Assembly: GCA_020631475.1 (NCBI GenBank)
Contig: JAHDHE010000002.1
Coordinates: 3,803-67,802 of the forward strand
DNA length: 64,000 nt
Origin: Tenacibaculum sp.
GTDB taxonomy: Bacteria; Bacteroidota; Bacteroidia; Flavobacteriales; Flavobacteriaceae
Reading direction: 5' to 3'
In this document: positions 12,046 to 40,110 of the stretch, one piece after another
Layout: every line of letters begins with the position of its first letter
How positions within the stretch are numbered: the first letter of the stretch is position 1
Translations under genes and position numbers: made by a program
The notes under the pieces: generated by a model
Databases searched by the model: none
The model's input: the letters and a program-made list of their open reading frames with translations, nothing else
What the model was told of the DNA's origin: nothing

Positions 12046-12561
12046 TTACAAAACTCTTTTAGCTCTAATAAATGCTTGCGCCCAATATGGTTGCTGTAAT
12101 GAAGTTACAATAACCCCTTTTGAACTTGTTGAATGTATAAAATGAATATTTCCGTTTTTTACAGAAGTAACCAAACCTACGTGATTTACCCTTCCTCTTT
12201 TACGAGTTGTTTTAAAAAATAACAAATCTCCTCTTTTTACTTTTCGCAAAGAAATATCATATCCTTTAGCATACATTTCGCGAGAAGTTCTTGGTATAGT
12301 AACATTACGTTGCTTAAATGCTGTGTGAATTAACCCAGAGCAATCCATTCCTTTTTTAGTAGTTCCTCCATATTTATAGCGAACACCTTTGTATGAAACT
12401 GCTGTCCAAACAATTTTATCTGCTAAAGTTGGAGTTCCTTTAACGTTTGTGTTTTGTTTAATTACTTTTTTAGGTCTCTTATAAGTAACTGTTTTTTTTG
12501 ATGATCCGCATGAAATCATCAAAAAAGAAATACTAAAAATAAATAGCAGTTTTTTTATCAT
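12046..12561 (-). CDS. NlpC/P60 (C40) peptidase lipoprotein
   Basis: Lipobox LMISC; GMDCSGL, HVG, FIHS; tandem paralog of 11550-12044. Confidence 0.92.
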   Translation of the reverse strand: MIKKLLFIFSISFLMISCGSSKKTVTYKRPKKVIKQNTNVKGTPTLADKIVWTAVSYKGVRYKYGGTTKKGMDCSGLIHTAFKQRNVTIPRTSREMYAKGYDISLRKVKRGDLLFFKTTRKRGRVNHVGLVTSVKNGNIHFIHSTSSKGVIVTSLQQPYWAQAFIRAKRVL

Positions 12562-12566
12562 GCTTT

Positions 12567-12639
12567 TGTCAAATCGAGCGCAGTCGAGATTTAATTCTAC
12601 TAATATTTTTTATTCCTCTCGACTGCGCTCGAGAAGACA
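12567..12639. repeat. REP-like hairpin dimer (TGTC tags outward)
   Basis: TGTC-AAATC-GA-GCGCAGTC-GA-GATTT (+, 12567-12592) and TGTC-TTCTC-GA-GCGCAGTC-GA-GAGG (-, 12615-12639). Confidence 0.85.
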
Positions 12640-12642
12640 TAC

Positions 12643-37422: not shown

Positions 37423-38694
37423 ATGTCTAAAATTATTTCTGGATTTTCGAAACTTACTAAAGAAGAAAAAATTGATTGGTTAGCTAAAACATATTTTAAT
37501 AACCAACCCGAAATTATACAAACACTAAAACAATATTGGAATGTTAATGGTGAACTACAACAATTACATGATGATTTTATAGAGAATACCATTTCTAACT
37601 TTTACATGCCATATGGTATTGCTCCTAATTTTGTTATTAACGGACAAGATTATGTAATACCAATGGTAGTTGAAGAAAGCTCGGTAGTTGCAGCAGCTTC
37701 TTTAGTTGCTAAATACTGGAGTACTCGTGGTGGTTTTAAAGCTGAAGTAATTTCTACTACTAAAATTGGTCAAGTACATTTTATGTATTCTGGTGACAAA
37801 AAAGATTTAGAAACTTATTTTAATCAGAGAAAAAGCGAATTATATACAGCTACATCTTCCATAACTAAGAACATGGAAAAACGCGGTGGTGGTATTTTAG
37901 ATATTTTTTTAGTTGATAAAACAGATAAACTCGCTAATTACTATCAGCTTCATGTTACTTTCGAAACTAAAGATAGCATGGGAGCTAATTTTATCAATTC
38001 TTGTTTAGAGGTTATTGCTAAAACTTTTAGACGTAATGATATTGAAATTGTAATGAGCATACTTTCTAACTACGTTCCCGAATGTACAGTTAGAGCAGAG
38101 GTAAGTTGCAAGGTAGAAGATTTAGGTGGAGAAAATCCGCAGAAATTTGCTGAAAAATTTGAGCAAGCTGTTAAAATAGCGGAAATAGAACCTTATCGCG
38201 CTGTAACTCATAACAAAGGAATTATGAATGGTATTGATGCTGTTGTTTTAGCTACTGGAAATGATTTTAGAGCTATTGAAGCCGGTGCACATGCTTATGC
38301 TTCAAAAGATGGACAATATCAAAGTTTAACACATTGTACTGTAAAAGATGGTGTTTTTAAATTTTGGATTGAGATTCCGTTAGCATTAGGTACCGTTGGT
38401 GGTTTAACCTCTTTACATCCTATGGCAAAATTATCGTTAGATATGATGCAAAAACCTAGCGCCAAAGATTTAATGAAAATTATAGCTACTGCTGGTTTAG
38501 CTCAAAACTTTGCTGCATTACGTGCATTGACAACTAAAGGAATTCAGCATGGACATATGAAAATGCACTTGCAAAATATTTTAAATCAACTAGGAGCATC
38601 AGTTGATGAAAAGGAAACAATTACAACTTACTTTGAAGATAAAACAGTTTCTCATAGTGCTGTAGTTGATAAATTTAATGAATTAAGAAAGTAG
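37423..38694 (+). CDS. mvaA: HMG-CoA reductase (class II)
   Basis: EESSVVAA, DSMGAN, THNKGIMNG, GNDFRA, GIQHGHMKMH. Confidence 0.93.
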   Translation: MSKIISGFSKLTKEEKIDWLAKTYFNNQPEIIQTLKQYWNVNGELQQLHDDFIENTISNFYMPYGIAPNFVINGQDYVIPMVVEESSVVAAASLVAKYWSTRGGFKAEVISTTKIGQVHFMYSGDKKDLETYFNQRKSELYTATSSITKNMEKRGGGILDIFLVDKTDKLANYYQLHVTFETKDSMGANFINSCLEVIAKTFRRNDIEIVMSILSNYVPECTVRAEVSCKVEDLGGENPQKFAEKFEQAVKIAEIEPYRAVTHNKGIMNGIDAVVLATGNDFRAIEAGAHAYASKDGQYQSLTHCTVKDGVFKFWIEIPLALGTVGGLTSLHPMAKLSLDMMQKPSAKDLMKIIATAGLAQNFAALRALTTKGIQHGHMKMHLQNILNQLGASVDEKETITTYFEDKTVSHSAVVDKFNELRK

Positions 38695-39098
38695 CTTCGA
38701 CTTCGCTCAGCTACCAAAAAACTAAATGAAGATATGCCTATAGGTTTTGTTTATATTTTAGAATGTTCTGATGGAAGTTTTTATACTGGTAGCACTATCA
38801 ACTTAGAAAAAAGGTTATTTGAACATCATAGCGGACAAGGCGCAAGACATACTAAAGCTAGATTACCTGTTAACTTAGTTTATATAGAAAAGTTTCAAGA
38901 AATTCATCAAGCGTTTTATAGAGAAAAGCAAATTCAAGGTTGGTCTAGAAAAAAGAAAATCGCACTAATTCAACAAAACTACGAACTATTGCCTAAACTT
39001 TCAGAGTGCCAAAACAAAACACACTATAAGTTAAAAAAATTACGCTAGTCATGAAAAAATCCACAAACAATTTGGTAACTGAGCGTAGTCGAAGTTAC
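38691..39098. mobile_element. Candidate mobile cassette: GIY-YIG gene flanked by 28-bp inverted REP-like hairpins
   Basis: GTAGCTTCGACTTCGCTCAGCTACCAAA (38691-38718) vs TTTGGTAACTGAGCGTAGTCGAAGTTAC (39071-39098): 25/28 complementary. Confidence 0.6.
38734..39048 (+). CDS. Small GIY-YIG nuclease (UPF0213/YhbQ-like)
   Basis: FVYIL...FYTGST..RL..H...G...T, A..REKQI.GWSRKKK.ALI. Confidence 0.92.
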   Translation: MPIGFVYILECSDGSFYTGSTINLEKRLFEHHSGQGARHTKARLPVNLVYIEKFQEIHQAFYREKQIQGWSRKKKIALIQQNYELLPKLSECQNKTHYKLKKLR

Positions 39099-40034
39099 AG
39101 CAACGGAAAATTATTATTAACAGGTGAATATGTTGTTCTTGACGGAGCAACCTCTTTAGCTGTTCCAACAAAATTTGGTCAAGATTTAATAGTTAGTCCT
39201 ATAAAAGAACAGCAACTTGTTTGGGGAAGTTTTACTAATACTGGCGAATGCTGGTTTGAAGCGAGTTTCGATTTACCAAAACTTAGACTAACCTCTGCAA
39301 CATTTAATTCTAACAAGGAAGGAAGTGCTGAATTCATTGCTGAAACTTTACGTGATATTTTATTAGAAGCAAAAGAACTAAATCCACAATTTTTAAATTC
39401 TGACAGCGGATTTGTTGTAAAAACCAACTTAACATTCCCAAAAGATTGGGGATTAGGAAGTTCATCAACTTTAATAAATAATATTGCTACTTGGGCAAAT
39501 ATAAACCCATTTACCTTGCTATGGAATGCTTTTTCTGGTAGTGGTTATGATATTGCTTGTGCAAGTCATAACTCTCCTATTTTATATCAATTAGAAAACA
39601 ACCTCTCGTCTCCGCTCGAGATGATACCAAAAATTGAAGAGGTGAAGTTCAATCCTAATTTTACAGATGAATTGTTTTTTGTGTATTTAAATCAAAAGCA
39701 AAACAGCAGAGAGGGAATTGCACAATACAAACAACACAAAGAAGAGGCAAAAACATTAATTTCTGAAATTAATAACTTAACTCAAGAGTTTTTAAAAGTT
39801 GACTCATCTAAAAGTTTAAACAAAATAATTGTTGAGCACGAACGTATTATTAGTTCAATTATAAAACAAGGACCTGTAAAAAAACAATTGTTTTCTGATT
39901 ATTTCGGAGAGATAAAAAGTTTAGGTGCTTGGGGTGGAGATTTTATTTTAGCTACCGGAAGCGAAGACAGTATTAAATATTTTAATAATAAAGGATACAA
40001 CACTGTTATTCCTTATAAAGAAATGGTTTTATAA
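39051..40034 (+). CDS. GHMP kinase (GYDIA type, putative phosphomevalonate kinase)
   Basis: GKLLLTGEY, WGLGSSS, SGSGYDIAC, KSLGAWGGDF; two REP-derived in-frame peptides. Confidence 0.88.
   Translation: MKKSTNNLVTERSRSYSNGKLLLTGEYVVLDGATSLAVPTKFGQDLIVSPIKEQQLVWGSFTNTGECWFEASFDLPKLRLTSATFNSNKEGSAEFIAETLRDILLEAKELNPQFLNSDSGFVVKTNLTFPKDWGLGSSSTLINNIATWANINPFTLLWNAFSGSGYDIACASHNSPILYQLENNLSSPLEMIPKIEEVKFNPNFTDELFFVYLNQKQNSREGIAQYKQHKEEAKTLISEINNLTQEFLKVDSSKSLNKIIVEHERIISSIIKQGPVKKQLFSDYFGEIKSLGAWGGDFILATGSEDSIKYFNNKGYNTVIPYKEMVL
39601..39626 (-). repeat. Degenerate REP-like hairpin inside the kinase CDS
   Basis: Minus strand TATC-ATCTC-GA-GCGGAGAC-GA-GAGGT; read as NLSSPLEMI on the plus strand. 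Confidence 0.7.
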
Positions 40035-40044
40035 ACATATTATT

Positions 40045-40110
40045 AGGTCTCGACTGCGCTCGACCTGACAAATTAATTTTTAAAATGTCTCCTCGAGCGC
40101 AGTCGAGAGG
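40045..40110. repeat. REP-like hairpin dimer (TGTC tags inward)
   Basis: TGTC-AGGTC-GA-GCGCAGTC-GA-GACCT (-, 40045-40070) and TGTC-TCCTC-GA-GCGCAGTC-GA-GAGG (+, 40086-40110). Confidence 0.85.

What the first reader, a model, noticed from the sequence alone, without database searches (positions are those of the whole stretch)
38691..39098. GIY-YIG nuclease gene bracketed by inverted REP-like hairpins: candidate non-transposase mobile/REP-maintenance system
Seen: a 104-aa GIY-YIG gene with no metabolic link interrupts the HMG-CoA reductase-GHMP kinase operon. It lies between 28-bp inverted repeats whose three differences are one compensatory stem pair (G:C to A:T) and the free triloop base. The left repeat contains the mvaA stop codon and the right one lies in the first codons of the kinase, so the insertion leaves both genes intact. 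The polarity matches the empty dimer at 40045-40110. Known: classical REPs are tied to HUH/Y1 RAYT transposases flanked by their REPs, and small GIY-YIG enzymes include structure-specific nucleases. Inference: here a GIY-YIG nuclease holds the RAYT-like position and may nick or spread these hairpins.
Basis: partly seen in the sequence, partly recalled or inferred. Interest (0 to 1): 0.85.

Follow-up and report, generated by a model that had tools for sequence, protein, structure and literature searches.

The report
Hairpin-flanked nuclease, cousin of Ssn
A tiny nuclease gene sits between two copies of its own DNA hairpin at a spot that relatives leave empty or fill with other hairpin-flanked genes; it likely cuts single-stranded DNA beside that hairpin, as the published Ssn enzymes do, but comes from a separate branch with a different hairpin, and its cassette likely moved recently between related species.

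Summary
Observation confirmed: a 104-aa GIY-YIG gene between 28-bp inverted hairpins (3 differences, as described). The layout and the RAYT comparison are already published for the Ssn family (Chenal 2025, PMC11893778), and this scan has noted such cassettes on other DNA. This protein, however, lies outside the SsnA clade (100/99 support; E 3e-7 to Neisseria SsnA), and its hairpin fails the published SRM motif. Its clade is flanked by NGGT-tagged hairpins (25 of 30 loci); a sister clade has TGTC-tagged ones (31 of 31). The junction is a hot spot: of 89 relatives, 50 are empty, 11 carry this clade, 3 a classical Ssn, 3 a Y1 transposase and 8 a gene-less dimer. One species pair shows recent cassette-limited transfer (dS 0.07 against 0.37–0.50 in the flanks). 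Partial hairpin copies join mostly on the tag side (21 vs 5 genomes, mode 3 nt before the tag, SsnA's cut position). Cutting and self-mobility are untested. New variant of a known kind.

The parts
38691..38718 (-). Left hairpin: TGGT tag (gene-proximal), 6-bp stem, GAGCGAAGTCGA core with a C-GAA-G triloop. Its far foot overlaps the mvaA stop codon.
38734..39048 (+). 104-aa single-domain GIY-YIG nuclease, 'clade A'. Y7, Y17, R27, H31 and E64 are invariant in a 41-sequence alignment; C-terminal EC.N motif; dN/dS 0.03-0.16 where computable.
39040..39051 (-). Possible decayed half of an inner right hairpin (11 bases match with one gap), at the place where G014, G024, G278 and G078 keep an inner hairpin. 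Inferred, weak.
39071..39098 (+). Right hairpin: TGGT tag (gene-proximal), core GAGCGTAGTCGA. Translated as VTERSRSY at the kinase N-terminus, replacing the native start seen in empty alleles.
37423..38694 (+). Host gene: HMG-CoA reductase (mvaA), left neighbour
39051..40034 (+). Host gene: GYDIA-family GHMP kinase, right neighbour; the junction 5' of it is an insertion hot spot in the genus
39598..39627 (-). Context: decayed in-frame hairpin of the GTC type inside a kinase loop; not part of the cassette
40045..40110 (.). Context: gene-less dimer of TGTC-tagged hairpins (the sister clade's type); not the cognate hairpin of this nuclease

Best explanation
This is a nuclease gene with its own cognate hairpin, and the enzyme is likely an Ssn-like site-specific single-strand endonuclease that would bind the NGGT-tagged hairpin and cut about 3 nt 5' of the tag. 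Shown: anatomy, clade-to-tag pairing, position outside the SsnA clade, empty and alternative occupants of the site, purifying selection. Inferred: host repair of such nicks (trimming back to a neighbouring GNA mini-hairpin and rejoining, or strand-displacement copying) builds the local hairpin arrays and seeds scattered copies. Inferred: the cassette moves between related species by host recombination over short tracts rather than by a transposase reaction. Inferred: this copy is a reduced array that lost its inner hairpin pair and kept the outer two because they supply the mvaA stop and the kinase N-terminus.
For: SsnA catalytic positions Y6/Y17/E64 correspond to invariant Y7/Y17/E64 here. 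AF2 model pLDDT 89.7, nearest folds UPF0213 then Slx1. Tag pairing in genome loci: clade A 83 GGT vs 2 GTC hairpins (25 of 30 loci GGT only), clade B 77 GTC vs 0 GGT (31 of 31); metagenome clade A 158 GGT vs 5 GTC, 136 other. In SsnA the bases just 5' of the stem govern cleavage. Genus: at least 4 GGT hairpins in 13 of 16 carriers vs 1 of 105 non-carriers. Partial-copy joints: 25 loci in 21 genomes on the tag side vs 6 loci in 5 genomes on the other side, sign test p 0.0025 by genome; leader length mode 3 (7 of 25) (corrected in 87). G255 vs G274: nuclease dS 0.07, flanks 0.50 and 0.37; 100 of 135 informative flank sites of G255 side with the empty G194, switching at -423/-419 and between +2 and +44. 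G205, G278 and G078 keep inner and outer hairpins at this junction.
Against: No biochemical test. The protein is only 35% identical to SsnA and could be structure-specific like Slx1. The 5' bias of joints could come from the GNA mini-hairpin alone, which is exonuclease-resistant and forms on one strand only (PMC13037366 passages; our core has G-T where that paper has G-C). Leader lengths are spread (0-11 nt; 10 of 25 are over 3), and 10 further loci could not be classified. Carrier counts include hairpins next to the gene (all listed copies in G221 and G246), and kin are not independent. TGTC hairpins are also abundant (11 or more) in 18 of 104 genomes without clade B (counted by hand), so hairpins outlast or do not need the enzyme. 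The cassette ends lie at the 3' feet of the hairpins, not at the predicted cut sites. Lateral transfer rests mainly on one species pair.
Confidence: 0.68

Rival explanations
1. Self-propelled element: the nuclease actively drives homing or transposition of its cassette (nick-primed copying and capture at gene junctions), a transposase-free analogue of RAYT/REP.
For: At least 11 changes of state on the kinase tree. Cassette-limited transfer tract. 13 host bases lost and no target duplication in filled vs empty sisters. Tandem gene copies in G171 and G232. The same junction is used by Y1 transposases and classical Ssn.
Against: GIY-YIG enzymes are hydrolytic, with no known strand-joining step (established knowledge). 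One clade-A copy per genome as a rule. 12 of 16 genus carriers are at one site. An empty allele has no hairpin to cut, so no drive is evident. No relatives found in viral contigs. Empty-site contigs in three runs are from 85-91%-alike relatives, not the same strain.
Confidence: 0.15
2. Domesticated or generic host nuclease (UPF0213/Slx1-like, DNA repair or restriction of incoming ssDNA); the hairpins are passive targets that grow by replication slippage.
For: Best structural and sequence matches are UPF0213 and Slx1. Strong purifying selection. SsnA modulates transformation in Neisseria.
Against: YazA/YhbQ-type genes have no flanking hairpins (5 of 5 rows) and form their own group (99/96). Clade A is patchy (16 of 121 genomes, 2 of them pseudogenes). 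Several joints fuse two different hairpin types, which slippage does not produce (e.g. G402).
Confidence: 0.1
3. The hairpins are spread by a RAYT/IS200-type Y1 transposase and the nuclease is cargo.
For: Y1 transposases occur in the genus, even at this junction. The genome is only 59% complete, so one may be missing.
Against: Those Y1 genes are flanked by unrelated ATAG/ATTG-type hairpins. No Y1 was found in G000 by family or protein search. The tag follows the nuclease clade. Di Nocera 2013 found no RAYT flanked by CGTC units.
Confidence: 0.04
4. One old insertion at this junction, inherited vertically and lost many times; no present-day movement.
For: Close homologues are syntenic, and G000 vs G247 dS is alike for nuclease and flanks (1.09 vs 1.15 and 1.14). 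The same junction is filled in three other genera.
Against: Empty sisters keep native start and stop bases that filled alleles lack, so they are not deletion products. dS 0.07 in G255/G274. 68 of 75 metagenome loci are elsewhere.
Confidence: 0.03

Closest known systems
Ssn family (SsnA of Neisseria meningitidis, CDD cd10448) with NTS/SRM hairpins; Chenal et al. 2025, PMC11893778
   Same: Single-domain ~100-aa GIY-YIG gene flanked by inverted, 5'-tagged imperfect hairpins; same catalytic positions; dispersed copies; the authors already liken it to IS200/RAYT-REP.
   Different: Outside the SsnA clade (stem 1.06, 100/99); E 3e-7 to Neisseria SsnA against the paper's 1e-10 criterion; NGGT tag and GNA-triloop core instead of CGTC; no SRM match at up to 2 mismatches; activity untested.
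RAYT / TnpA(REP) with GTAG REPs and BIMEs (PMC3479197 passages; PMC2817692 listing only)
   Same: Gene flanked by its own tagged imperfect hairpins, arrays of alternating hairpins, gene-less dimers elsewhere; here the same junction is used by both kinds.
   Different: RAYT is an HUH/Y1 enzyme with a phosphotyrosine intermediate and strand transfer; this is a hydrolytic GIY-YIG with no PF01797 match.
CGTC-tagged REP superfamily (Di Nocera et al. 2013, PMC3733652 passages)
   Same: The sister TGTC hairpins fit the CGTC/TGTC tag; reported in Bacteroidetes; described as lacking a dedicated transposase.
   Different: The NGGT-tagged type was not seen in the passages read; here each tag pairs with a nuclease clade.
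UPF0213 proteins (YazA, BH0048 1ZG2, EF2693 1YWL) and Slx1
   Same: Closest solved structures (E 1.6e-15; Foldseek 8e-6).
   Different: Housekeeping-type context, no flanking hairpins, separate tree group (99/96).

Membership tests
Ssn (cd10448) | Small single-domain GIY-YIG with the SsnA catalytic residues | tested here: met
   104 aa, PF01541 only; Y7, Y17, E64 invariant (SsnA residues)
Ssn (cd10448) | Homology to Neisseria SsnA at E < 1e-10 over 75% of its length | tested here: not met
   N. gonorrhoeae homologue (L095, first ~4 residues missing) vs query: 34.6%, 41 bits, E 3.4e-7 at dbsize 1e6; all 34 Ssn-clade rows give 1e-15 or better. Three clade A and two clade-B-side rows pass marginally (1e-13 to 8e-11), so the cut-off is fuzzy. 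The N. meningitidis protein itself was not available.
Ssn (cd10448) | Inside the SsnA clade | tested here: not met
   Ssn rows form one side of a long branch (100/99) without the query. Ssn+A+B together vs UPF0213 has 99/96; Ssn+A as sisters is not rejected (p-AU 0.47). The root is unresolved (the UvrC outgroup is too long).
Ssn (cd10448) | Top CDD assignment cd10448 | not testable with these tools
   No CDD library is held
Ssn (cd10448) | Flanking SRM motif | tested here: not met
   No match at 0-2 mismatches in 38200-39600 and no exact match in G000. The motif also misses most Flavobacteriaceae Ssn-clade loci, so this test is narrow.
Ssn (cd10448) | Flanked by inverted, oriented hairpins with a conserved 5' tag | tested here: met
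Ssn (cd10448) | Site-specific cleavage of ssDNA 5' of the hairpin | not testable with these tools
   Needs purified protein; indirect footprint only
RAYT / IS200-IS605 TnpA | HUH motif and catalytic Tyr (PF01797) | tested here: not met
   Only PF01541 matches
RAYT / IS200-IS605 TnpA | Gene flanked by its own tagged REPs | tested here: met
   Analogous layout
Classical IS/MITE | Terminal inverted repeats with target-site duplication | tested here: not met
   Filled vs empty sisters: no duplication, about 13 host bases missing, 1-4 nt microhomology
UPF0213 (YazA/YhbQ type) | Inside the YazA/YhbQ group, hairpin-free housekeeping context | tested here: not met
   Separate group 99/96; references lack hairpins

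The most novel reading that the evidence does not exclude
Small GIY-YIG nucleases outside cd10448, each with its own tag-specific GNA mini-hairpin, are the missing mobilisers of non-GTAG REPs: nicking 3 nt before the tag creates, multiplies and inserts the hairpins (also in frame into genes) and lets the cassette home between species without any transposase, competing with RAYT and Ssn cassettes for the same junctions.
Probability: 0.3. Interest if true: 0.75.

Novelty: new variant of a known kind. Interest (0 to 1): 0.45.

Why it matters
It extends the Ssn principle to a second enzyme branch with hairpins that the published motif misses. It offers a natural matched pair (GGT vs GTC tag on the same core) to test how a 100-residue protein reads a tag, and possibly new ssDNA cutters. 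The joint asymmetry and the cassette-limited transfer make directly testable an open question raised in 2013 and 2025: what spreads CGTC/TGTC-type REPs, which have no dedicated transposase.

Tried and rejected
Whole-window repeat finder missed the pair among AT-rich noise. Single-protein scan of genome contigs gave only 2 loci. No clade A relatives in viral contigs. ViennaRNA gives no excess stability. No RNA holder listed. Reads laid on 4 of 20 runs show the filled form near-identical in X2 (possibly the source) and 94-96% alike in X10/X11, and empty joints only in 85-91%-alike contigs, so no excision in the same strain is seen. My first idea, in-place inversion of each hairpin core, was dropped when loci with both inner and outer hairpins turned up. 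My first reading that the protein groups with UPF0213 came from midpoint rooting; the careful tree separates them. Rooting with UvrC failed (branch 6.1). One search mislabelled the six 3'-side loci as 'untagged' and its printed p-value is wrong; one search holds the corrected test. Higher nuclease than kinase identity across genera (67-77% vs 51-58%) was not used as transfer evidence because mvaA is equally conserved. Literature searches for this branch found nothing beyond Chenal 2025: (open-access library only), plus 12 of 14 supplements searched for UPF0213/cd10456/YhbQ with no hit. Figure 5a of that paper is an image and could not be seen; it may show hairpin-flanked proteins outside the shaded clade.

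Full report
Observation. The anatomy is as reported. A 104-aa ORF at 38734-39048 carries only a GIY-YIG domain and lies between mvaA and a GYDIA-family GHMP kinase. The repeats at 38691-38718 and 39071-39098 differ at three places: one stem pair and the loop base. The tagged core occurs twice in the window and never in 100 shuffles. Read on its tagged strand each repeat is TGGT + stem + GAGCGNAGTCGA + stem, and both tags point at the gene. Named homologues are mostly Flavobacteriaceae. The genome is 59% complete.

Prior art. Chenal et al. 2025 (PMC11893778; I read parts 1-6 of 11, supplement 12 whole, and passages of others) describe Ssn: single-domain GIY-YIG proteins of CDD family cd10448 flanked by hairpins (NTS/SRM), cutting ssDNA just 5' of the hairpin, with the bases before the stem governing cleavage. 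From their oligo lengths (37 nt = 6 before the cut + NTS of 28) I infer a cut 3 nt before the tag. They already liken NTS-ssnA-NTS to IS200/RAYT-REP. The general idea of the finding is therefore published. Di Nocera 2013 (passages) notes that CGTC/TGTC REPs lack a dedicated transposase.

Is it an Ssn? It works like one by anatomy, but it fails three membership tests. In trees of 114 and 41 proteins, the Neisseria gonorrhoeae and Azospirillum SsnA homologues, together with a second small nuclease of this same genome (G000:C9), form one side of a long branch (100/99) that excludes the query. The query scores E 3e-7 against Neisseria SsnA, and its hairpins do not match SRM at up to 2 mismatches. 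It is not a housekeeping UPF0213 either, although those are its nearest solved structures: YazA-type rows group apart (99/96) and have no hairpins. A sister relation to Ssn is not rejected (p-AU 0.47). The catalytic residues are invariant, the model is confident (pLDDT 89.7), and dN/dS is 0.03-0.16 in the 15 of 28 pairs where dS is not saturated.

Cognate hairpin. Two related clades share the core but not the tag. Clade A (the query's) has 83 GGT, 2 GTC and 16 other hairpins at 30 genome loci; clade B has 77 GTC, 0 GGT and 1 other at 31 loci. In metagenomes, 63 of 65 distinct clade A loci with full flanks have a hairpin within about 200 nt, 38 on both sides, against 4 of 80 control windows; only 7 of 75 lie at mvaA or the kinase (5 duplicates of 80 dropped). 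Across 121 genomes of the genus, 13 of 16 clade A carriers have 4 or more GGT hairpins against 1 of 105 others. These counts include copies next to the gene, two carriers were assigned by identity, and kin are not independent. All 17 clade B carriers have 11 or more GTC hairpins, but so do 18 of 104 non-carriers (counted by hand). In G000 the GGT type exists only as the two flanking copies; the 16-17 scattered copies, including 40045-40110, are GTC type, and no clade B gene was found in the assembled part. No Y1 transposase was found there either.

The site. I read the junction 5' of the kinase in 89 of the 116 genus genomes with a kinase hit. Fifty are empty (one cut by a contig end), 11 carry clade A (2 broken), 8 a gene-less TGTC dimer, 3 a classical Ssn with NTS-like hairpins, and 17 something else, of which 3 are PF01797 Y1 transposases with their own hairpins. 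Clade A needs at least 11 changes on the kinase tree (92 rows, three from other genera). Filled and empty sisters differ by the cassette plus about 13 host bases, with no target duplication; the hairpin supplies the upstream stop and the kinase N-terminus. Empty alleles keep those bases, so they are not excision products. The clearest movement: G255 and G274 share the nuclease at dS 0.07 but their flanks at 0.50 and 0.37. In the flanks, 100 of 135 informative sites side G255 with the empty G194, and the switch lies within about 15 bp on the left and 44 bp on the right of the cassette (sites counted by hand from the output).

Polarity. Tags pointing inward are the minority (2 of 38 two-sided metagenome loci, against 27 pointing outward). 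G205, G278 and G078 hold an inner outward-tagged pair plus one or both outer hairpins in the same positions as here, G205 with the identical overlap of the mvaA stop. I infer that G000 lost the inner pair; 39040-39051 may be a remnant.

Footprint of nicking. Two mirror-image pattern searches over 401 family genomes gave 58 and 44 matches of adjacent same-strand cores. I fetched 40 distinct loci and added 3 held earlier, leaving out repeated matches of one array and two that were not clear copies (G350, G442). In 25 loci (21 genomes) a truncated hairpin is joined to a few bases plus the tag of the next. In 6 loci (5 genomes) the mirror joint occurs; 4 are whole copies and 10 are unclassified (two loci fall in two classes). 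Sign test p 0.0025 by genome. The leader is 3 nt in 7 of 25 and 3 or less in 15. Some joints fuse two different hairpin types, which simple slippage does not give. This fits a nick 3 nt before the tag followed by trimming to a GNA mini-hairpin. But GCGNAGC mini-hairpins resist exonucleases by themselves (PMC13037366 passages), so the bias does not prove enzyme action.

Mechanism and verdict. Most likely a selfish or half-domesticated nuclease-hairpin cassette: tag-specific ssDNA nicking (inferred from homology, tag pairing and footprint), hairpin growth through host repair (inferred), and lateral spread by short-tract host recombination (inferred from one clear pair and the patchy tree). That GIY-YIG enzymes hydrolyse and do not join strands is established knowledge, which is why I rank active transposition lower. 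RAYT biochemistry is cited from passages of PMC3479197. The label RPE for in-gene palindromes is partly recalled. Earlier notes of this scan (231 findings hold the search words) reached the same 'Ssn cousin' reading on other DNA; I had found the paper and the branch before reading them. New variant of a known kind; interest 0.45.

Noticed in passing
window 39598-39627 (kinase loop after ILYQL): In-frame decayed GTC-type hairpin. Relatives carry different hairpin types and orientations in the same loop (G241, G247, G209, G014, G205, G278) or none (G001, G011), like Rickettsia in-gene palindromes: repeated independent insertion into one protein loop.
   Followed up: partly
G000:C9:650-919 (L002): Second small GIY-YIG gene of the SsnA clade, with a CGTC-tagged hairpin upstream and a decayed one downstream, between genes that look like bioD and bioA (names by eye, not tested); its hairpins are missed by the published SRM motif.
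   Followed up: partly
L066, L035, L039, L043; L108, L113: In-frame fusions of the nuclease to the downstream kinase in G247, G078, G079 and G141 (411-445 aa); clade B nucleases run into long ORFs in G199 and G206.
   Followed up: no
L182, L017, L202: Y1 transposases with ATAG/ATTG-type hairpins at the same junction in G206, G017 and G275.
   Followed up: partly
L090, L094, L109, L110, L114; L045, L049; L039, L043, L047, L078: Further nuclease subgroups with the same outer hairpin but longer or altered loops (long inserted stems; a GAGGCTCTCGA-like core), suggesting more enzyme-hairpin pairs.
   Followed up: no
window 12560-12640: Second gene-less TGTC dimer, tags pointing outward.
   Followed up: no
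G280:C1:52900-54500: Array of about 25 GGT hairpin units at 60-bp period.
   Followed up: no
mvaA 3' end in the genus (L013, L016, L019 and others): In many relatives mvaA continues in frame into a further ~150-residue domain that I labelled DinB-like by eye (not tested); G000 lacks it.
   Followed up: no
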